A stretch of DNA of 64,000 nt, taken from the IMG/VR virus record IMGVR_UViG_3300025128_000017, positions 1-64,000 of that record; one strand, written 5' to 3'. This document shows positions 13,617 through 59,455 of this stretch, piece by piece. The translations under genes and the position numbers were made by a program. Below the pieces are notes generated by a model, which saw only the letters and a program-made list of their open reading frames with translations, searched no databases and was not told the DNA's origin. The stretch comes from a virus. Each line of letters begins with the position of its first letter. The first letter of the stretch is position 1.

Positions 13617-13793
13617 TTATTTTATAGTTTTTTTGAATATAGAGTCTTCCCAAAGATGACCACATTCTCTACATTTCCAAATGTAAACTCTTGTTCTTTT
13701 TTCATCGTGAAATCTTCCAGAAATCCTGATGGGTATATGTTTGTGGTTACATTTTCTACAAGATACTTTTAATCGCTCAGAAAGTTTTTTCAT
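13617..13793 (-). CDS. 58-aa TFS/TFIIS-C-like zinc ribbon (not in ORF track)
   Basis: Hand translation MKKLSERLKVSCRKCNHKHIPIRISGRFHDEKRTRVYIWKCRECGHLWEDSIFKKTIK; ATG overlaps the thermosome TGA. Confidence 0.6.
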   Translation of the reverse strand: MKKLSERLKVSCRKCNHKHIPIRISGRFHDEKRTRVYIWKCRECGHLWEDSIFKKTIK

Positions 13794-15286
13794 CAATCCA
13801 TGCCTCTTTTTGCAATGATGTCGTCAATTTTTAATATTGCAGTTGTTACCTCGGTTGCACTAAGAATTGCTTGTCTAACCAAATCACATGGTTCAACAAC
13901 ACCATCTTCCAACATATTTGCAATACCACCTTCTTCTACATCAACACCCATATGATAGTCGCCATCTGATATAGCGTGTCTCATGTCAAGAATTACATCT
14001 AATGGGTCGTGTCCTGCGTTTTCCGCTATAGTTGCTGGTAATATTTCTAAAGAATCTGCAAATGCGTTAATAGCCATCTGTGCTCTACCCTCAACGGTAT
14101 TAGACTTCATTCTCAAATGATTAGCCAAAGCCGCATATGTAGACCCTCCACCTGTAACGATTTTTCCTCCATTTAATACTAAAGACACTACACCTAATGC
14201 GTCATCAAAACCACGAGCGACTTCATCAAGAGTTGAACTTGTTGCACCTCTCAAAATTAATGTTGATTGATTAGATTCAACTTTCCCACTAACGAATAAA
14301 TAATTTATTTCATTGAATGTTTTTCTATTAATTAAACCTGAAATTACATTTTCTATATCATCAGGAGTCTGTGCTATACGAGAACCTAATGCTAATCCTA
14401 ATGCTTTCATTGATGATTCAGGCACTCTTCTAACAATTGCTATATTCTGTTTTGCTAAGTAAGCAGCAACGTCATCGGTAACTCCATCCCTGATGAATAC
14501 TACTCCACCATTTGGCAACATATTACCAATTCTTTTTGCTTGTGTGAGTAAATCATCTGTGTCGCTTTTCTTAAATGCGTTGTAACCTTTCATATCTACT
14601 TGCACTGTAACATTTTCTTCTCTCTTTACAGGTTCTAAACCAGTGTTAAGTAATATAACATTAGAAAGATTTTCTTCCTGTACTTCATAAACAAAATCTT
14701 TGTTGACTACAACACCATTGAAGAAATAAGAATCAGATAATGCACCGCCAGCCAATCCAACAACTTTTACTTTGTCTGCACTTCCTGCGACATTGACTGC
14801 TTCAACACATAGTTTAGACACTTGGTCTATTGCTGCTTCTAATGTTTTTCCAGTAACTGAAGTTTTTGCTATTTGTAATATTTCTTGTTCATTTGCTTCA
14901 TAAGATAGTTTGTTATCTAAGAAATCAATAGCCATAGTAGCCGCTTGATTATATCCTTTACATACTAAGTTAGGATGTAATCCTTTTGTGAAAAGATTTT
15001 CTGAATCTGCTAATAATTGACCTGCCAGTATTACAGTAGATGTTGTACCATCGTAACACAATGCTTCTTGTGTTTTAGCAATATCAACCATCATTTTTGC
15101 ACCGGGATGACTAACATCTAATTCTCTTAGTATTGTTGCACCATCATTAGTGATTATTGTATCACCGCCAGCATCAACCATCATTTTATCTCGACCCATT
15201 GGACCAAGTGTACTTTTGACAGTATCTACAATCGTTCTTGCTGCTCTTATATTATTTTGTAAGGGGTTCATTCTCTCATCTTTCAT
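13793..15286 (-). CDS. ths: Group II chaperonin (thermosome-like)
   Basis: 'STLGPMGRDKM', 'ITNDGATIL', 'DGTTS', 'ILRG', 'GGG', 'ENAG', 'GVVEP', 'ILKIDDII'. Confidence 0.95.
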   Translation of the reverse strand: MKDERMNPLQNNIRAARTIVDTVKSTLGPMGRDKMMVDAGGDTIITNDGATILRELDVSHPGAKMMVDIAKTQEALCYDGTTSTVILAGQLLADSENLFTKGLHPNLVCKGYNQAATMAIDFLDNKLSYEANEQEILQIAKTSVTGKTLEAAIDQVSKLCVEAVNVAGSADKVKVVGLAGGALSDSYFFNGVVVNKDFVYEVQEENLSNVILLNTGLEPVKREENVTVQVDMKGYNAFKKSDTDDLLTQAKRIGNMLPNGGVVFIRDGVTDDVAAYLAKQNIAIVRRVPESSMKALGLALGSRIAQTPDDIENVISGLINRKTFNEINYLFVSGKVESNQSTLILRGATSSTLDEVARGFDDALGVVSLVLNGGKIVTGGGSTYAALANHLRMKSNTVEGRAQMAINAFADSLEILPATIAENAGHDPLDVILDMRHAISDGDYHMGVDVEEGGIANMLEDGVVEPCDLVRQAILSATEVTTAILKIDDIIAKRGMD

Positions 15287-53193: not shown

Positions 53194-53229
53194 AAGTGGA
53201 TTTTTGATAGGACTTGTCCATTTTTTTTG

Positions 53230-53760
53230 ACTGGTAACGGTACTTTTTTCACGTAACCCTACCGTGTGTGTGAGTTTTACCTGTCGGTAACAAGAGGAGG
53301 GTATAGTATACCCCTACCATATGGGTGGGAAGTTCCAACATTGGGAGTGGGTTGTTGGTGTTTGCATCAAGCAAATGCAGCATCACGCTGTTGTTGAAGC
53401 GTTGTTGGAAGGTTGGGGGTATCAGGCGACCCACCAACAACAAACCCTCAACACCAACAGCGTCACGCTCGGTGGGTTGTTGTTGTTGGCACGTAACCCT
53501 AGCATCACGCTGAGTTTAGCGTCACGCTCGCCCCACCAACAACCTTTGATTCCAACGTAATTAAGCACTTTTAGCGTCACGCTAAGGCGGAGTGATACGT
53601 AACCCTAGGCCACGTAACCCTCTTTTAGTCACACACAACGCTGTGAAAAAATTTGACTGAGGGCGAAAAACATAGCGGAAACGCACTTTTAAAAAAATTT
53701 TTTGTAAATTTTTGTTGTTGGGGGTGCGTTGTTGCCCCAAAACATTGTTTCCCGCTATGT
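53230..53760. repeat. Repeat-rich divergent intergenic region (origin/terminus candidate)
   Basis: ACGTAACCCT x4, AGC(G/A)TCACGCT x5, CCAACAAC/GTTGTTGG tracts. Confidence 0.75.
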
Positions 53761-53792
53761 TAATATCCAAACACTAAGTCGGACAAGACGTT

Positions 53793-54497
53793 ATGAGCAG
53801 CGGCTTTGGTAAAAACAGTGATTTTCATTATTTGTCGCCAAATTTTGTGTTAAAGGCGAAAAGGTCGGGCGAATATTCTACGCCTGACCATGTTTTGTTG
53901 GATAATGTTAGGAATAATAGGCCAAATTCAGCAGATGATAGGCTAACGCCGGAAGAAATGCAAAGAAAAAAAATAGAAATGGCTATGATGAACAAACCTA
54001 ACCCGGATATGATGAAAAGTGATGACAAAAAGAAACCTGCGATGGCTCTTGTGATTTCTGTTGGACCTAAAATGCCAAAAAAACCTACAGACACGGCAAC
54101 TCCTGACAAAATGAAAAAATATGGTACTATGAAAAAAGCATGGAGTGTTTTAAAAAATAACATGGAAGTTGGAATGTGCAAAAATTGTGAAGGTACTGGT
54201 AAAATTCCGTTTAGAGCATCGCAAGCAAGAGGAAGGTTTGACCCTAATCCAGAAGCAGGACAAATAGGAGACCCATGCCCATCATGCGGGGGTGATGGGA
54301 GTGCCCCTATAAGTGACCCTGCTTTTACATCAATGCAACAAAAATTAACTGGTGAGCCTATGAATTTAGCATTTAGATTACTTAAAGAGTCTATTGACCC
54401 TAAAAAATTAGCAGAAATGAGAGCAGCAAGAGATGCTGCTAGAAGACAAATGGGTCAATCAAATCCCGAAAGAGGCGGAGATGTTGACCCAATTTGA
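53793..54497 (+). CDS. Modular protein with DnaJ-type Zn finger and two shared-peptide copies
   Basis: CKNCEGTG...CPSCGGDG; 'KAWSVLK', 'EPMNLAFRLLK'. Confidence 0.65.
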   Translation: MSSGFGKNSDFHYLSPNFVLKAKRSGEYSTPDHVLLDNVRNNRPNSADDRLTPEEMQRKKIEMAMMNKPNPDMMKSDDKKKPAMALVISVGPKMPKKPTDTATPDKMKKYGTMKKAWSVLKNNMEVGMCKNCEGTGKIPFRASQARGRFDPNPEAGQIGDPCPSCGGDGSAPISDPAFTSMQQKLTGEPMNLAFRLLKESIDPKKLAEMRAARDAARRQMGQSNPERGGDVDPI

Positions 54498-55479
54498 CAT
54501 CGCTTGGTCTTTTTTGAAGGCCGATGATGATGCAAAGTTAATGGCTGAAATACAAAGGCAACTTGCTGAATTTAGAAATAATGAAAATATGAGCAACGAT
54601 GTATCTGAGCAACCCGCTACAGAACCTCAATCTTTTAATCCAAGTGAAAGAAAACTTGCTTTTCCTAGAAAACGTAGTAAAAAATATTCTATACCAATAA
54701 GACAAGACGAATCGAATGAAGAATTTAAATTAGGACCTTCGTTTAGAGAAAGAACTGATGAATCGCAAGGTTCACAAATGCAAATAGAAGAACAAAAACG
54801 ACAAGCCGTTGAAAGATTAAAAAATAAAATAAAAAGAAAAAATGAAGTTGCAGTAACGAGAGGCGGTAGTGGTGTTTACGCTGACGATGAACATGCAGAA
54901 ACAGTTAGGCAAGATTGGTTAGACTCAATGTCTGATGATGAAAGACAAAGATTTGCAGAACATGAAGAAGATTTCAACACTTTGGCTATATTGGCAGAAA
55001 TGAAAAGACAAGGTGCAGTAGACCAAGACGCATTGGGTATGTATGGAGAAAATCTTGCTAGTGGTGCTATGTTGTTGGCTACTCCTGAGTCACAGCGTGA
55101 TGAAAATTGGAATAATGCATTGAAAAACCACAAATTGGCTCATGCTGTGCATAATGATGAGTTAGACAATTCTTTTGATGGTTATGATAAAGTTTCAGAC
55201 AATGTTGGTGTGGTTGATAACAACAAAAAAATGGCTGAAAAATTATATGGTTACAAAGAAGATGTTGACGAAGAAGAAGAAGACGATGGTGATGAATTAC
55301 TTCCAGATGATTATGTTATGCCCGGTTCGCCAGTTGCTTTACAAAATGAAAAGAAAGAACAAGAAAATAATACTTTACAAAACGAAATTGCACGTCAAAT
55401 TGCAGAATACAATAAAAACATGGTTGGTGTTACAAATAAACCACAATATACTGAAGAAGACTATGAAGCAGGTGATTAA
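54481..55479 (+). CDS. Acidic protein with N-terminal shared peptide
   Basis: Start MLTQFDIAWSFLK after GAGGCGGAG. Confidence 0.65.
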   Translation: MLTQFDIAWSFLKADDDAKLMAEIQRQLAEFRNNENMSNDVSEQPATEPQSFNPSERKLAFPRKRSKKYSIPIRQDESNEEFKLGPSFRERTDESQGSQMQIEEQKRQAVERLKNKIKRKNEVAVTRGGSGVYADDEHAETVRQDWLDSMSDDERQRFAEHEEDFNTLAILAEMKRQGAVDQDALGMYGENLASGAMLLATPESQRDENWNNALKNHKLAHAVHNDELDNSFDGYDKVSDNVGVVDNNKKMAEKLYGYKEDVDEEEEDDGDELLPDDYVMPGSPVALQNEKKEQENNTLQNEIARQIAEYNKNMVGVTNKPQYTEEDYEAGD

Positions 55480-55537
55480 CGCCAACAGTATATAAAGCAC
55501 AAGTTTTATTTACACACTACGTGTAGCATATATACAG

Positions 55538-55741
55538 ATGAGTGCGAGCCAAAGAGCGTTTGATGATGCTTGGTTGATGTTAAAGTCTCAGCCTGTAGGT
55601 TTGTCATTTACTAAATCTCAAAGAGACAAAATTGTTCATACAATTGTTAAGATGATGCAAAGTGATAACCCTGAAATGATAGAAAAAGCCACAGAATTGT
55701 ACAGTCTCTACAATAATTCTTTTGATATTACTCTGAATTGA
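55538..55741 (+). CDS. Small protein with N-terminal shared peptide
   Basis: 'AFDDAWLMLK'; promoter-like CAGTATATAAAG at 55486. Confidence 0.6.
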   Translation: MSASQRAFDDAWLMLKSQPVGLSFTKSQRDKIVHTIVKMMQSDNPEMIEKATELYSLYNNSFDITLN

Positions 55742-56060
55742 AACCAGTTGTTGTGCCAGCGTGTTCTCTAGCGTCCGTAGCGGCTTCTTGTATTTTATTA
55801 CCTGTGTCGCCTACTTTAGCACCAACTTTTTTCCCTGCTTTTCTGCCAGCCATACCACCGACTAGTGAACCAACTCTTGCACCAATTGCTGTTCCAATTC
55901 CCGGAACTACACTTCCAATCGCAGCACCAAGTGCAGCACCACCAGCAGCACCTGCCGCAGTTCCACCAACAGCACCACCACCAGCACCTACTTTTCCTTC
56001 AGTGGTTTTAGCATCGCCGTATTTTAAAACAGACCACGCTTCTTCAAATGGGTCGACCAT
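55728..56060 (-). CDS. Glycine-zipper protein with N-terminal shared peptide
   Basis: 'PFEEAWSVLK' then 'GAALGAAIGSVVPGIGTAIGARVG'. Confidence 0.7.
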   Translation of the reverse strand: MVDPFEEAWSVLKYGDAKTTEGKVGAGGGAVGGTAAGAAGGAALGAAIGSVVPGIGTAIGARVGSLVGGMAGRKAGKKVGAKVGDTGNKIQEAATDAREHAGTTTGFNSE

Positions 56061-56087
56061 AATAAGCGGAGGAAGGGGAAGGTAAAA

Positions 56088-56858
56088 ATGCTGTCGCCTT
56101 TCGTAAGACCTATCATGTACGTAGGTGTTATACGGAAAGCACCTGTAGATTTCTCAACATATCAGCAAGTACAAGACAATGGAAGAACAATTCATACTGC
56201 TGATGCTTATGAAGATGGAACTGAAGCAAACGAATACACCTCTCCTAATTATCAATTAAGAGCAGAAACAGAAGGTTTAGGTGGTAGAAAACCGTTTGCA
56301 CAAGTTGTTGCAGGAAAAGTAGGTAGAACACCAATAGGTACAGATACAGAAGACCAAAGTTTTGGAGAACCTACAAACATTAGAGGTAAGGCTACCTTTA
56401 GTAGAGTACCTGCAAGAGAAGATTTCAAATTAGATGATGAAGAAGCGGGAAATTTAGCAGCAGACAATGTTTATGTTGATGAAGCAGATAGAAGACGAGG
56501 TATTGGTTCTGACATGTACGATTTAATGGCACATATAGGTGAACGAAAAAATATGAATTTAGTTCCATCTGAAAATCAAACCGCTGATGGAAAAAAATTT
56601 TGGAGTAAAAGTGGTCAAGAAGGTCAATGGAGGATTAATAGAAGTGAACCTATGAATATAACTTTACAACTACTAAAGGGAAAAAGTTACATTCAAGATA
56701 GACCAAAACGACTCGCACAAGCCAAAGTTCAACGTCTTAGCCGAAAAGTTAAGAACGCACGCACTCAACACAAGTACAAACGTAATTTGGCTCGTGGAGC
56801 AATTAGACCAAAAATGAGGACACAAACCGGATTAATTAGAGTAACAAGGAGTAGATGA
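56088..56858 (+). CDS. GNAT acetyltransferase-like domain plus basic tail
   Basis: 'VYVDEADRRRGIGS' motif A, 'QTADGKKFW', then 'EPMNITLQLLK'. Confidence 0.65.
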   Translation: MLSPFVRPIMYVGVIRKAPVDFSTYQQVQDNGRTIHTADAYEDGTEANEYTSPNYQLRAETEGLGGRKPFAQVVAGKVGRTPIGTDTEDQSFGEPTNIRGKATFSRVPAREDFKLDDEEAGNLAADNVYVDEADRRRGIGSDMYDLMAHIGERKNMNLVPSENQTADGKKFWSKSGQEGQWRINRSEPMNITLQLLKGKSYIQDRPKRLAQAKVQRLSRKVKNARTQHKYKRNLARGAIRPKMRTQTGLIRVTRSR

Positions 56859-56859
56859 T

Positions 56860-57153
56860 ATGAAACCAATAGACGCAGCATTTTCTTTTTTAAAAGCAGC
56901 AGGACCAATGAGACAATTAATGGATAATCCAGCCGACCCACAGAGTGAGTTAGTTGCTGGTGATGATGAAAAATTACAACAAGCGTATGAAGAAGCACAT
57001 AAAGAAATAGATGAGCATCATAAAAAGAAGCAGACTGCACAAAAAAGAAGAGATGAAATGAATCATCGCAATTCCAAGAAAGATGTTGACAAATTCTATG
57101 AAGATAATCACCCTGATTTCTTTAGCAGTTTAACTAAACCTGAATTAGATTAA
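56860..57153 (+). CDS. Small helical protein with N-terminal shared peptide
   Basis: 'PIDAAFSFLK'. Confidence 0.6.
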   Translation: MKPIDAAFSFLKAAGPMRQLMDNPADPQSELVAGDDEKLQQAYEEAHKEIDEHHKKKQTAQKRRDEMNHRNSKKDVDKFYEDNHPDFFSSLTKPELD

Positions 57154-58338
57154 GTGATTATGATGAACCCGTTTGACGTTGCTTTTGAATTTATTAAAGC
57201 ACCTCCACCTGATTTATATTACAATGCTGAAGAAAGTGTACCATACGATAATGACGCAATGCATAATATAATGGGTACTGCTAAATTACAAGAAGTATTA
57301 CAAGAAGACCCCGCTGTAATGGTAGATGCACATTTTGGTGCTTTCGATGAAGGTGTTAGAGGGGCAGATTTAAACCCAAAAGGGATGAATTATGGTATGC
57401 CTTATCATAAACTTATTACTAACCAACGAATGAAACCAGAAACAATTAATTTCATAAGAACTTTAGGAGCATCTGAAACATCTCCAGTTGGGATGAGTGT
57501 TGATGCAAAACAAATTTCAAACATAGTACATGACGGAGAAGATTGGATACACAGTAAAGAAAAAAATAAAGGTCATTGGCAATATTCAATCAAACCTCTT
57601 GTGGGTACATCAGAAACTGGAAGAAAACAATTTCCCAATTTTGATTTAGGTGATATGAGATTTTTAAATGATATGGAAAATATGTCCGATGAAGAAAAAT
57701 TTCATAGAGATTTTTTCCTATCTGAAAAAGGGCAAGACATGTTTTATAGTGATGATAATCATCATAAAGCGAAAAGAGATTCTATAGAATACTCCGTAAA
57801 TGCACCAGATGAAAATTCTACTGCTGAAGAATTGATGACTTATTATTCTAATACAGGGGCAAAAGGTGCTGAATGGTATCCACATTTATCTGAAGCAGGA
57901 AGAAAATACATAAATAAAAATTTAGGAAAACCGGGATTTGCAAAGCCTATAAAAATCCTTATAGATAATGCAATGGTGGAAAGAAAGAGAGTTTTAGAGG
58001 CAAGGGAAGAGGCAAAGAAGCGAGGTCCTTTAGACGAACAAGGTAGACAAATTTCCGTTAAAAGCGAACCAATGGATATAGCCTTCCAATTACTGAAAGA
58101 ACGTAAGTCACCTGAAGCGTTTGCCAACAAAAAGAAATACGATAGTGAATATCAAAAAACACCAAAGCGTGTAAAATATCGTGAACAACTAAATGCAGAA
58201 CGTAGAAGAAGAGGAATATATGGCAAAGGTGGAAAAGATGTCAGCCATACACAAGGTGGAAAATTAACATTAGAAAGTGTTCATGCTAATAGAGCAAGAC
58301 ACTTTAAGAATAAAGGAACGCTTAGGAGAGTGAAATGA
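57154..58338 (+). CDS. Modular protein with C-terminal HNH-like domain
   Basis: 'PFDVAFEFIK', internal 'EPMDIAFQLLK', 'KDVSH...LESVHANRAR'. Confidence 0.6.
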   Translation: MIMMNPFDVAFEFIKAPPPDLYYNAEESVPYDNDAMHNIMGTAKLQEVLQEDPAVMVDAHFGAFDEGVRGADLNPKGMNYGMPYHKLITNQRMKPETINFIRTLGASETSPVGMSVDAKQISNIVHDGEDWIHSKEKNKGHWQYSIKPLVGTSETGRKQFPNFDLGDMRFLNDMENMSDEEKFHRDFFLSEKGQDMFYSDDNHHKAKRDSIEYSVNAPDENSTAEELMTYYSNTGAKGAEWYPHLSEAGRKYINKNLGKPGFAKPIKILIDNAMVERKRVLEAREEAKKRGPLDEQGRQISVKSEPMDIAFQLLKERKSPEAFANKKKYDSEYQKTPKRVKYREQLNAERRRRGIYGKGGKDVSHTQGGKLTLESVHANRARHFKNKGTLRRVK

Positions 58339-58405
58339 AACAAACATTACCTTTGCGGAGAATAAAAACAAGTAGTAGGTTTAATTGGTGGAAGTGTGAC
58401 TTAAT

Positions 58406-58588
58406 ATGAGTTGTGAATGTGGTCATTGTGTAGGTATGGATGGAGCATGGGATATGCTTGAAAAAAAATTATGTCCTGCTGGTAAAGCGGCTGCAAAAAG
58501 AAAGTTCAAAGTTTATCCATCTGCATATGCTAATGGTTGGGCTGTACAATATTGTCGTGGTAAGTTTAAGGGGAAGAAAAAGAAATGA
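58406..58588 (+). CDS. Small basic phage protein
   Basis: 'KRKFKVYPSAYANG'; 'DGAWDMLEK'. Confidence 0.6.
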   Translation: MSCECGHCVGMDGAWDMLEKKLCPAGKAAAKRKFKVYPSAYANGWAVQYCRGKFKGKKKK

Positions 58589-58797
58589 ATCATATTGCTA
58601 ATGTGAAAGCATGGAATCTTCTCAAAGGGAAAGAGGATGCACCAAATTATCGGAAAGCCACAGGACCAAAAAAATGTGGTAATTGTAAAGCATGGGATTC
58701 TTCAAAAACAAATGACCCAATGACAGGGTATTGTGAAATGTATGATTTTACTTGTAGAGCAGACCATACTTGTGATGCATGGGTGAGTAAAAAATGA
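58585..58797 (+). CDS. HiPIP-like Cys protein
   Basis: 'NY...CGNC..W...C.........CDAW'. Confidence 0.55.
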   Translation: MNHIANVKAWNLLKGKEDAPNYRKATGPKKCGNCKAWDSSKTNDPMTGYCEMYDFTCRADHTCDAWVSKK

Positions 58798-59102
58798 CAC
58801 GATGTACTTGTTATGATACTCTCGTAGTTAAAAACCTGAATCGTTGGTTTAAAGAAAAATGGGTAGATGTTTCAAGAAAAGACAAGGATGGCAAGCATCC
58901 ACCGTGTGGGAGAAGTAAAGCAAAACTTTCAGGTAAAGGCTATCCAAAGTGTAGACCTTCTGTAAAAGTTTCAAGCGATACACCAAAAACTTCTGGTTCA
59001 ATGAGTAGTGGACAAAAACAAGCAGCAACTAAAAGAAAAAGAGCCAAAAAACAAGGTGTTGGCGGAAAACCTACTATAGTAAAGATGGTTGGGGTGATAT
59101 AA
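58794..59102 (+). CDS. Small basic phage protein
   Basis: 'LNRWFKEKWVD...PCGRS...YPKCRPS'. Confidence 0.6.
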   Translation: MTRCTCYDTLVVKNLNRWFKEKWVDVSRKDKDGKHPPCGRSKAKLSGKGYPKCRPSVKVSSDTPKTSGSMSSGQKQAATKRKRAKKQGVGGKPTIVKMVGVI

Positions 59103-59455
59103 TGGAGCACGAGCCTTGTAATTGTTGCACACCTTTCCAACAAGCAACAGTCGCTTTGATGGATAATGTTTTTGAAAAGGCTAAAAAGAAATCTAAACCA
59201 TTTCACGGTTACAATCCAAACAGACATAGCAGAAGTGGTGGTCTAAATGCAAAAGGTCGTGCAAAGTTCAAAAGAGAGACAGGTGCAAATCTTAAAAGAC
59301 CTGTTACAAAGAAACCAAGTTCTCTAAAACCCGGTAGTAAAGCGGCAAAAAGAAGAAAGTCTTTCTGTGCAAGAATGGGTGGAAGTAAAGGTCCAACGAG
59401 CAAGGGTGGGAAACTTACCCCGAAAGGTGCAGCGTTGAAAAGATGGAATTGTTGA
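59102..59455 (+). CDS. Small basic phage protein
   Basis: 'GGLNAKGR...RRKSFCARM...RWNC'. Confidence 0.6.
   Translation: MEHEPCNCCTPFQQATVALMDNVFEKAKKKSKPFHGYNPNRHSRSGGLNAKGRAKFKRETGANLKRPVTKKPSSLKPGSKAAKRRKSFCARMGGSKGPTSKGGKLTPKGAALKRWNC

What the first reader, a model, noticed from the sequence alone, without database searches (positions are those of the whole stretch)
53793..59455. Shared 'F-D-x-A-W-x-x-L-K' peptide on unrelated proteins: putative capsid-targeting/processing signal
Eleven copies in nine ORFs: MKKAWSVLK, EPMNLAFRLLK, QFDIAWSFLK, AFDDAWLMLK, PFEEAWSVLK, EPMNITLQLLK, PIDAAFSFLK, PFDVAFEFIK, EPMDIAFQLLK, MDGAWDMLEK, VKAWNLLK. Each is at an N-terminus or a domain boundary, ahead of different cargo (DnaJ Zn finger, acidic domain, glycine zipper, basic tail, HNH-like, HiPIP-like). 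Codons vary and one gene is on the opposite strand, so selection acts on the peptide. T4 internal proteins use a short N-terminal capsid-targeting sequence removed by the prohead protease. Inference: a modular tag that loads proteins into heads, with cleavage near the Lys, for delivery into the host.
Basis: partly seen in the sequence, partly recalled or inferred. Interest (0 to 1): 0.85.

Follow-up and report, generated by a model that had tools for sequence, protein, structure and literature searches.

The report
Shared address tag on magrovirus proteins
An abundant ocean archaeal virus (a magrovirus) puts the same ten-residue helix ending in Leu-Lys in front of or between many unrelated late proteins, probably as a combined loading label and cutting site for proteins placed in the virus head, though neither loading nor cutting has been shown.

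Summary
All 11 copies sit where stated, in 9 ORFs. A profile built almost entirely from other genomes finds 9 of them and nothing else in the 96-kb genome except one further copy at 64.9 kb.

The window is the first 64 kb of a magrovirus, a virus of marine group II archaea. In 60 related loci the motif occurs 272 times against 10-20 by chance. About 116 copies are N-terminal, 135 internal and 9 C-terminal. They stand in front of at least 100 unrelated modules, of which only 6 of 107 representatives match Pfam. Synonymous codons vary freely, so selection acts on the peptide. None of about 61 early or replication genes carries it.

New here:
- The tag's second half, [A/T]-aromatic-x-h-h-K, recurs twice in the head protease-scaffold protein, which belongs to the HK97-type S78 family.
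- h-h-K also precedes the protease domain.
- The capsid protein has a conserved h-x-K|A-D at the position matching HK97's known K103/S104 cleavage site.

My reading is an address helix plus an S78 cut site, working like the T4 capsid-targeting sequence (confidence about 0.5). Loading and cleavage are inferred, not shown. The one complex prediction gave no answer.

This scan found the same tag earlier in other magrovirus genomes. No paper in the library searched holds it.

The parts
53793..54497 (+). Tagged protein A (234 aa). It has a possible short strand-like leader ending N-F-V-L-K (nt 53841-53855), an internal tag M-K-K-A-W-S-V-L-K (nt 54129-54155) directly before a Cys-rich zinc-finger-like stretch, and an EPM-type tag (nt 54354-54386) before a short tail.
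54481..55479 (+). Tagged protein B (332 aa from the ATG at 54481). N-terminal tag at nt 54490-54519. The cargo is strongly acidic (73 Asp+Glu) with no family.
55538..55741 (+). Tagged protein C (67 aa). N-terminal tag at nt 55556-55585, then a small helical module conserved in at least 5 related loci.
55728..56060 (-). Tagged protein D (110 aa), the only minus-strand member. N-terminal tag at nt 56022-56051, then a glycine zipper. In other magroviruses a look-alike Gly-rich stretch (by eye, not aligned) stands behind the strand-like leader instead.
56088..56858 (+). Tagged protein E (256 aa). Strand-like leader ending G-V-I-R-K (nt 56124-56138), a weak GNAT-like middle part, and an EPM-type tag (nt 56646-56678) before a Lys/Arg-rich tail.
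56860..57153 (+). Tagged protein F (97 aa). N-terminal tag at nt 56866-56895, then a charged helical module whose family occurs in 13 related loci.
57163..58338 (+). Tagged protein G (391 aa). N-terminal tag (nt 57169-57198), about 290 aa of unknown module, and an EPM-type tag (nt 58066-58098) before a basic module of about 80 aa (phrog_6437). That basic module is 70-97% identical on hundreds of otherwise different proteins.
58406..58588 (+). Small basic protein H (60 aa). Cys-rich start, a degenerate tag (nt 58436-58465), then the first half of DUF5872 (phrog_27331), which begins right after the tag.
58585..58797 (+). Small protein I (70 aa). Shortened N-terminal tag (nt 58603-58626), then a Cys-rich module with a weak DUF7140 hit.
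58794..59102 (+). Small basic protein J (102 aa). Strand-like leader ending T-L-V-V-K (nt 58818-58832), directly before the second half of DUF5872. No helical tag.
59102..59455 (+). Small basic protein K (117 aa, DUF6321). It has no clear tag and belongs to the same run of basic mini-proteins. A relative (L031) carries a tag-like start.

Best explanation
The motif is a portable helical peptide of about ten residues. Its consensus is P-[F/M/I]-[D/E/N]-x-A-[W/F]-x-[L/V/F]-L-K.

Its hydrophobic residues fall at positions i, i+3, i+4 and i+7, so they line one face of a short helix. I propose two jobs in one peptide, as in the phage T4 capsid-targeting sequence:
- The first half docks the carrier protein to a component inside the assembling head.
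- The last residues (h-h-K) are a site for the virus's HK97-type (S78) prohead protease, which cuts after the Lys once the shell is closed.

Proteins with several tags would then be polyproteins cut into modules inside the head.

The cargo is a fast-changing set of mostly family-less modules, many of them Lys/Arg-rich or Cys-rich. Its role would be to accompany or follow the DNA.

Shown:
- the tag and its modular placement
- selection on the peptide
- restriction to late-direction genes
- restriction to one virus lineage
- the resemblance of its second half to conserved sites in the protease-scaffold and capsid proteins

Inferred:
- docking
- head location
- cleavage
- delivery
For: 1. **Modularity.** There are 272 copies in 60 related loci plus this genome, against 10-20 by chance. 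About 116 are N-terminal, 135 internal and 9 C-terminal. The 361 segments fall into 157 sequence clusters. Of 107 representatives, only 6 match Pfam.
2. **Add-on nature.** The same cargo domains occur without the tag in cyanophages, where the match starts right after the tag. The phrog_27331 match in protein H likewise starts right after the tag.
3. **Peptide-level selection.** Every synonymous codon is used at the invariant Ala, Leu and Lys.
4. **Late-gene restriction.** This genome has 0 copies in about 61 early-strand genes. All copies lie in the transcription direction of terminase, portal, protease and capsid genes, apart from one divergent gene inside the cluster. One tagged gene sits among the head and tail genes. 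In a complete 115-kb relative, all 15 copies lie in one 15-kb stretch on one strand.
5. **Link to the protease.** The protease is Peptidase_S78. HK97, the type member, cuts its capsid protein at K103/S104 (PMC10275583).
6. **Capsid protein site.** Position 34 is Lys or Arg in 110 of 124 diverse homologues. It is preceded by a hydrophobic residue at P3 and followed by A-D-x-P. It comes after a conserved N-terminal helix and a linker of variable length.
7. **Structural equivalence.** In the AlphaFold model (pLDDT 85), confidence rises from there on. The structural alignment puts model residue 49 on HK97 residue 119. If the unaligned N-arm has no insertion or deletion, HK97 residue 104 then falls on model residue 34.
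8. **Core motif count.** The six-residue core [A/S/T]-[F/W/Y]-x-[I/L/V/M]-h-K occurs 10 times in late proteins (0.9 expected, at most 4 in 200 shuffles). It occurs 0 times in early proteins. Seven hits are tags and two are in the protease-scaffold protein: one at the end of the protease domain and one in the scaffold part. Both are conserved in about 100 relatives.
9. **Protease N-terminus.** h-x-h-h-K|[A/G/S] directly precedes the protease domain in all relatives seen.
10. **Residue after the tag.** Ala and Glu are each enriched about 2.6-fold after the Lys. Val, Trp and Cys are absent.
11. **Second leader.** A strand-like leader ending h-h-V-(K/R)-K stands at the same place on the DUF5872 domain, and on Gly-rich stretches that look like protein D's glycine zipper by eye, in other genomes. 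This suggests the shared h-h-K is the functional end.
Against: - No tagged protein has been shown in a virion, and the virus is uncultured.
- No docking partner is identified.
- The protease-scaffold protein and a small head-region protein share a different C-terminal helix (M-S/T-W-x-D/E-V/I-H-x-L/M-A). That helix is a better candidate for the scaffold-to-shell contact, so the tag need not bind the shell.
- The core-motif hit at the end of the protease domain lies inside the Pfam S78 match. It may be structural rather than a cut site.
- The capsid K|A-D site is conserved in relatives that have no tags at all: HVTV-1, and a 69-kb marine relative whose capsid protein is 49% identical. It therefore says only what the protease probably cuts, not that tags are cut.
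- Nine copies sit within 8 residues of a stop codon, where cutting would release nothing.
- The P2 residue is almost invariably Leu in tags but varies in the capsid-protein family.
Confidence: 0.5

Rival explanations
1. The tag is a docking helix for one common partner that is not the head. The partner could be a viral hub, such as the thermosome-type chaperonin or the late GTPase and membrane module, or a conserved host protein. The tag is not cut.
For: - The F/W/L spacing (i, i+4, i+7) is that of classic short docking helices, as judged from the sequence itself.
- The tag works at N-terminal, internal and C-terminal positions, as a pure binding module would.
- Its sequence is extremely conserved while the cargo changes fast.
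- The genome encodes a chaperonin.
- No head partner was found.
Against: - It does not explain why the second half of the tag matches conserved sites in the protease-scaffold and capsid proteins.
- It does not explain why a quite different leader ending in the same h-h-K replaces the tag on the same cargo.
- The strict form of the tag occurs on only one contig among 185,579 prokaryote genomes, a short one in a MAG. It therefore does not copy a common host motif.
Confidence: 0.22
2. The motif is only a processing junction. The S78 protease, or another protease, cuts long precursors into modules, and the helix has no addressing role.
For: - There are 1-4 internal copies per protein with modules of about 60-325 aa between them.
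- The shared h-h-K end matches the likely protease sites.
Against: - Nearly half of the copies are 2-4 residues from the start Met, where a cut would remove only a dozen residues. That is what an address propeptide looks like.
- The first half of the tag (P-F-D-x-A-W) is as conserved as the cut-site half. A bare cut site would not need this.
- S78 proteases act inside the procapsid (established knowledge of HK97), so substrates must get there somehow.
Confidence: 0.12
3. The internal E-P-M copies are internal translation starts or scars of gene fusion. The Gly/Ser-Glu-Pro codons would be a ribosome-binding site and the Met a start codon. The polyproteins would then really be several separately made proteins that each begin with the helix.
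For: - Met fills the first hydrophobic position in 103 of 143 internal copies, while Phe dominates in N-terminal copies.
- Ser before Glu is AGY in 28 of 29 cases, and G is nearly fixed at -8 and -6.
- Some database ORFs start exactly at that Met, so fission and fusion at tag boundaries are common.
Against: - The codons before the Met are not enriched for Shine-Dalgarno-like words. GGC and AGC dominate, and GGA and GGT are not above their genome-wide share.
- The purine block sits 2-3 bases closer to the ATG than at true starts.
- The AGY bias is also what single G-to-A steps between Gly and Ser give.
- Ile, Phe or Leu replace Met in about 40 internal copies.
- This reading says nothing on what the helix does.
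Confidence: 0.1
4. The tag is a membrane-binding amphipathic helix that takes late proteins to the host membrane.
For: It is short and amphipathic, with a Trp or Phe. One cargo is a glycine zipper. Membrane proteins follow the cluster.
Against: The helix is neutral to acidic (Asp or Glu at position 2, one Lys), unlike known cationic membrane-targeting helices (my own knowledge). Most cargo is highly charged, soluble and DNA-binding-like.
Confidence: 0.04

Closest known systems
Capsid targeting sequence (CTS) of phage T4 internal proteins IPI-III and Alt (Mullaney and Black 1996; reviewed in PMC9026906)
   Same: - It is a short (about 10 aa) peptide shared by otherwise unrelated, fast-evolving proteins.
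- In T4 the first residues address the protein to the scaffold core and the last residues form the prohead protease site.
- In T4 the cargo is basic internal proteins and effectors.
- Here too the peptide has a conserved first half and a second half that resembles the likely protease sites.
   Different: - There is no sequence likeness.
- T4's protease (gp21) cuts after Glu, whereas an HK97-type S78 protease would cut after Lys.
- Here the tag also stands inside and at the end of proteins, up to four per protein.
- The host is an archaeon.
- Loading and cutting are proven in T4 and unproven here.
HK97 gp4 (Peptidase_S78) maturation cleavage of the capsid protein at K103/S104 (PMC10275583)
   Same: - The protease family is the same.
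- Lys is at P1.
- The conserved K|A-D of this capsid protein falls at the structurally matching place before the N-arm.
   Different: HK97 has a 103-residue scaffolding domain on the capsid protein and no known family of tagged cargo. Here the removable piece would be 34 residues, and the scaffold is fused to the protease.
Encapsulin cargo-loading peptides
   Same: A short peptide on unrelated cargo binds the inside of an HK97-fold shell, and it works when moved to other proteins. Encapsulin shells are among the structural neighbours of this capsid protein (Z about 17-18).
   Different: Encapsulin peptides are usually C-terminal, are not helical F/W/L tags, and are not cut. No binding to the shell is shown here.
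Phage P1 DarB/DarA and giant-phage (SPN3US, phiKZ) head-packaged proteins with protease-removed propeptides (PMC9024508, PMC5694885: titles and abstracts only)
   Same: Sets of anti-defence or ejection proteins are loaded into heads, and many are trimmed by the prohead protease.
   Different: Those systems use longer, protein-specific N-terminal regions or only a short cleavage motif. They do not use one nearly identical ten-residue helix repeated on dozens of proteins.

Membership tests
T4-type capsid targeting sequence (functional class) | The same short peptide at the N-terminus of otherwise unrelated proteins | tested here: met
   There are about 116 N-terminal copies, 2-4 residues after the start Met, on unrelated cargo. 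About 135 internal and 9 C-terminal copies exist as well, which T4 does not show.
T4-type capsid targeting sequence (functional class) | The peptide ends in the cleavage motif of the virus's own prohead protease | tested here: inconclusive
   The tag's h-h-K end resembles the conserved K|A-D site of the capsid protein at the HK97-equivalent place. It also resembles conserved sites in the protease-scaffold protein. No cleavage data exist.
T4-type capsid targeting sequence (functional class) | Tagged proteins are present in proheads or virions, and the tag is sufficient to load a foreign protein | not testable with these tools
   The virus is uncultured. No paper in the library searched holds both 'magrovirus' and 'metaproteom...'.
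T4-type capsid targeting sequence (homology) | Sequence relationship to the T4 IPIII propeptide and a gp21-type protease cutting after Glu | tested here: not met
   The protease here is Peptidase_S78 rather than the T4 gp21 type. The tag ends in Lys, not Glu.
Substrates of HK97-type (S78) prohead proteases | An S78 protease is encoded next to the capsid gene | tested here: met
   PF04586, E 3e-9, above the cut-off, at genome 81211-82566 directly upstream of the capsid gene.
Substrates of HK97-type (S78) prohead proteases | Cleavage after Lys, demonstrated | not testable with these tools
   There is only the analogy to HK97 K103/S104 and conservation of Lys or Arg in 110 of 124 capsid homologues.
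Encapsulin cargo-loading peptide | The peptide binds a pocket on the inner face of the HK97-fold shell protein | tested here: inconclusive
   The single complex job (capsid protein with tagged protein C) gave no answer. See Tried and rejected.
Viral polyprotein | Several modules in one ORF separated by a recurring junction motif | tested here: met
   There are up to four junction tags per protein in relatives and two in two proteins of this window. Processing itself was not tested.

The most novel reading that the evidence does not exclude
Magroviruses run a general cargo-loading system for their heads. One ten-residue helix serves as both address and protease cut site, can be placed anywhere in a protein, and loads a large and rapidly shuffled repertoire of effector and DNA-binding modules, including multi-module polyproteins that are cut up inside the capsid. 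This would be the first capsid-targeting signal known in an archaeal virus. It would be a natural counterpart of encapsulin cargo peptides in a true virus.
Probability: 0.4. Interest if true: 0.85.

Novelty: new variant of a known kind. Interest (0 to 1): 0.72.

Why it matters
- Magroviruses are among the most abundant archaeal viruses of the surface ocean, and nearly all their non-core genes are unexplained (PMC5434244).
- A shared tag would assign a common fate, and probably a common place in the particle, to a dozen or more dark-matter proteins per genome and hundreds across the group.
- It would show how these viruses swap effector modules.
- If the tag loads cargo into an HK97-fold shell and is then cut off, it would be a compact, portable handle for packing foreign proteins into capsids.
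- It would also link phage internal-protein targeting with encapsulin cargo loading.
- It gives direct experiments for a virus group that cannot yet be grown.

Tried and rejected
- **Complex prediction.** Capsid protein (alignment A2) with tagged protein C (alignment A3) gave no answer: score 0.00 in both runs, and no controls were run. The capsid alignment used was shallow. The same alignment gave a useless single-chain model (pLDDT 39). This is neither for nor against binding.
The genomic context of the hits therefore came from IMG/VR loci instead.
- **Literature strings.** Fragments of the tag and of the capsid site are held by no paper in the library searched.
- **Papers not held.** The papers that may hold N-terminal sequences of halovirus HVTV-1 capsid proteins (PMC3592136, PMC3737338) are not held. 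The cut site in the nearest cultured relatives could not be checked.
- **Shine-Dalgarno reading of the internal copies.** No enrichment of such words was found. The reading is kept as a minor rival.
- **Host-derived signal.** The strict tag occurs on one short MAG contig only, among 185,579 prokaryote genomes.
- **Tag in haloviruses or cyanophages.** None was found in HVTV-1 or S-CBS2.
- **Solved-structure search with the protease sequence.** Nothing useful.
- **ESM Atlas look-up** of the unknown 290-aa module of protein G: no usable hit.
- **Pfam on 107 cargo representatives.** Almost nothing, so the function of the cargo stays open.


Full report
**What the window is.**
- The window is the first 64 kb of a single 96,157-bp virus contig.
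- Minus-strand genes from 13.8 to 53.2 kb encode replication functions. These include a family B DNA polymerase, a helicase, a primase-like protein, and a chaperonin of the TCP-1/cpn60 family.
- Plus-strand genes run from 53.8 kb to the contig end and again from 1 to 12.7 kb. They include terminase, portal, a 2143-aa protein, a prohead protease fused to a scaffold-like part, the major capsid protein, and tail genes.
- The capsid protein is 32-34% identical to those of the haloarchaeal siphoviruses HVTV-1, HCTV-1 and HCTV-5. It has no bacterial-virus match in the phage collection.
- This pattern, together with the chaperonin gene and a size near 100 kb, is that of the magroviruses, viruses of marine group II archaea (PMC5434244).
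- The finding sits at the very start of the late transcription direction, just after a GC-richer strand-switch gap.

**The observation.**
- A[WF]xx[LI]K occurs 14 times in the six-frame translation of the genome, and nine of those are in real ORFs of this 5-kb stretch.
- A profile of 58 copies, 57 of them taken from other genomes, finds nine copies in this genome and nothing elsewhere apart from 64900-64938.
- Small HMMs add two copies outside the finding. One is internal in ORF 64480-65760, followed by an extremely basic stretch. One is N-terminal in ORF 85468-86199, among the head and tail genes.
- The early strand has none: 0 in about 61 genes and 12.8 thousand residues, against 11 in the late direction.

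**One tag, two dialects.**
- Aligned in register, the two forms are one motif: P-[F/M/I]-[D/E/N]-x-A-[W/F]-x-[L/V/F]-L-K.
- N-terminal copies start two to four residues after the Met. They prefer Phe at the first hydrophobic place and Trp at the second.
- Internal copies are nearly always [G/S]-E-P-M-[D/E/N]-I-A-F-Q-L-L-K.
- The hydrophobic residues fall at i, i+3, i+4 and i+7, one face of a short helix.
- All four Ala codons, all six Leu codons and both Lys codons are used at the invariant places. The peptide, not the DNA, is under selection.

**How widespread it is.**
- A search with protein G returned 498 proteins of 216-685 aa. Nearly all share only its last 90 residues, the tag plus a basic module, at 70-97% identity.
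- These proteins carry one to four internal tags and often an N-terminal one.
- In 60 IMG/VR loci the nine-residue expression hits 272 times, against 10-20 in reversed or shuffled translations.
- There are up to 15 copies in 20 kb, almost all on one strand.
- In a complete 115-kb relative, all 15 profile hits lie within 15 kb.
- By position there are about 116 N-terminal copies, 135 internal and 9 within eight residues of a stop.
- Cutting the ORFs at the tags gives 361 segments in 157 sequence clusters.
- Of 107 cluster representatives, only six match any Pfam family: a phage zinc finger, DUF6321, a glycine zipper, an HD domain and weak others.
- Cargo domains that do have relatives elsewhere (phrog_6437, phrog_27331/DUF5872) occur in cyanophages without the tag. 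There, or in the profile, the match begins right after the tag. In magroviruses the tag is therefore an add-on.

**Lineage limits.**
- The tag is absent from HVTV-1.
- It is absent from a 69-kb marine relative whose capsid protein is 49% identical.
- It is absent from the cyanophage S-CBS2.
- Its strict form occurs on one contig only among 185,579 prokaryote genomes, a short one in a MAG that is probably viral. It is therefore a speciality of one magrovirus lineage and not a host signal.

**Link to the head protease (the new part of this report).**
- The protease belongs to Peptidase_S78, the HK97 gp4 family. HK97 cuts its capsid protein at K103/S104 (PMC10275583).
- I aligned 123 diverse homologues of the capsid protein (31-55% identical). 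They share three features:
  - a conserved N-terminal helix;
  - a linker of variable length;
  - then h-x-K-A-D-x-P.
- The basic residue is Lys or Arg in 110 of 124 sequences. HVTV-1 aligns with the same K-A-D.
- With this alignment AlphaFold gives a good model (pLDDT 85). Confidence is low for residues 1-30 and rises from the mid-30s.
- Structural alignment to HK97 starts at model residue 49 against HK97 residue 119 (Z 17.4, rmsd 3.3, 252 aligned). If the unaligned N-arm has no insertion or deletion, HK97's new N-terminus at 104 then corresponds to model residue 34, next to the conserved Lys.
- That Lys-Ala bond is thus the likely maturation cut, and in this virus it reads L-L-K|A, the same end as the tag.
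- In all relatives the protease domain is directly preceded by h-x-h-h-K|[A/G/S].
- The six-residue core of the tag, [A/S/T]-[F/W/Y]-x-[I/L/V/M]-h-K, occurs ten times in late proteins. About 0.9 are expected, with at most 4 in 200 shuffles. It never occurs in early ones.
- Seven of those hits are tags. Two are in the protease-scaffold protein: one at the end of the protease domain and one in the scaffold part. Both are conserved in about 100 relatives, and sequence conservation stops right after the first.
- After the tag's Lys, Ala and Glu are each about 2.6-fold enriched, and Val, Trp and Cys are absent.

**A second leader.**
- Many proteins of these clusters that lack an N-terminal helix tag start instead with M-[S/K]-[K/R]-x-h-h-V-[K/R]-K followed by a small residue. 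An example in this genome is ORF 64480. Protein J, protein E and perhaps protein A have similar leaders.
- This strand-like leader sits directly before the DUF5872 domain in this genome and in two relatives. In other genomes it also stands before Gly-rich stretches that look, by eye, like the glycine zipper that carries the helix tag here.
- Two different leaders with the same h-h-K end in front of the same kind of cargo point to that end as a shared functional element.

**Mechanism proposed.**
- The first half of the tag docks the protein inside the assembling head.
- The S78 protease, which acts inside procapsids, then cuts after the Lys.
- N-terminal tags would be lost as short peptides.
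- In multi-tag proteins the upstream modules would keep a C-terminal tag and the last module would be freed. The last module is usually the basic one.
- This matches the logic of the T4 capsid-targeting sequence, where the first residues address and the last ones are the protease site (PMC9026906).
- Steps shown: the tag, its modularity, the peptide-level selection, the late-gene and lineage restriction, and the sequence likeness to conserved head-protein sites.
- Steps inferred: docking, head location, cleavage, delivery.

**Weak points.**
- No partner is known.
- The scaffold protein and a small protein of the head region share a different C-terminal helix, which is the more obvious shell-binding element.
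- One of the two core-motif hits in the protease lies inside the Pfam domain and may be structural.
- The capsid site is conserved in tag-less relatives too.
- C-terminal copies cannot be explained by cutting.

**The internal-start idea.**
- Met dominates the first hydrophobic place of internal copies. The Ser before Glu is AGY in 28 of 29 cases.
- However, the codons there are not enriched for Shine-Dalgarno-like words. GGC and AGC are the most common.
- The purine block lies closer to the ATG than at true starts.
- I keep this as a minor rival. It would not say what the helix does.

**Prior knowledge.**
- No paper in the library searched holds the tag strings. The magrovirus paper I searched does not contain the word 'motif'.
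- Earlier notes of this same scan describe the same tag in other magrovirus genomes. They reach the same general reading, with the destination unproven.
- This report agrees with them. It adds the S78 and HK97 site comparison, the tag-like sites in the protease-scaffold protein, the second leader, the early/late count, the lineage limits and the codon test.

**Verdict.**
- It is a new variant of a known kind of system (capsid-targeting and processing propeptides), here in an archaeal virus and with polyprotein-like use.
- Interest 0.72.

Noticed in passing
window 53841-53855, 56124-56138, 58818-58832; genome 64495-64515 (L001:4495-4515): A second, strand-like N-terminal leader, M-[S/K]-[K/R]-x-h-h-V-[K/R]-K followed by a small residue, stands on many proteins of these clusters that lack the helix tag. 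In other magroviruses it stands in the tag's place before the DUF5872 domain and before Gly-rich stretches resembling protein D's zipper.
   Followed up: partly
L002:3211-4566 (genome 81211-82566) and L001:13815-14135 (genome 73815-74135): The protease-scaffold protein and a 106-aa protein between portal and the giant ORF end in the same helix, M-[S/T]-W-x-[D/E]-[V/I]-H-x-[L/M]-A. For the protease-scaffold protein it is conserved in about 75 distinct C-termini of relatives. It may be the scaffold's shell- or portal-binding end.
   Followed up: partly
window 58069-58338: The basic module of about 80 aa after the last tag of protein G (phrog_6437) is 70-97% identical on hundreds of proteins that are otherwise unrelated. 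This is far more conserved than anything around it. Tag-less relatives occur in Synechococcus phages S-CBP2, S-CBS2 and S-CRES1. The 'HNH-like' label has no family support.
   Followed up: partly
window 58406-58588 and 58794-59102: The two halves of Pfam DUF5872 lie in two separate small genes, each behind its own leader, with an unrelated Cys-rich gene (58585-58797) between them.
   Followed up: no
window 13793-15286 (-): A full-length chaperonin of the TCP-1/cpn60 family (PF00118, E 2e-124) is present, as described for 12 of the 26 magroviruses in PMC5434244.
   Followed up: no
window 53222-53792: This is a non-coding strand-switch gap between the early and late directions. It is GC-richer than the rest (0.44 against about 0.36 in 2-kb bins).
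   Followed up: no
L144 (NZMJ01000140.1, 8.8-kb contig of a Maricaulis MAG): This is the only prokaryote-genome contig with the strict tag. It is most likely a magrovirus fragment binned into a bacterial MAG.
   Followed up: no
genome 74736-81167 (L001:14736 onwards): A 2143-aa ORF lies between portal and protease, in the place where HVTV-1 has 1048-aa and 1313-aa proteins. No helix tag was found in it.
   Followed up: no
genome 85468-86199 (L002:7468-8199): The tagged protein among the head and tail genes carries P-E-P-[Q/M] repeats in its second half. Similar tagged genes lie downstream of the capsid gene in about half of 80 related loci.
   Followed up: partly
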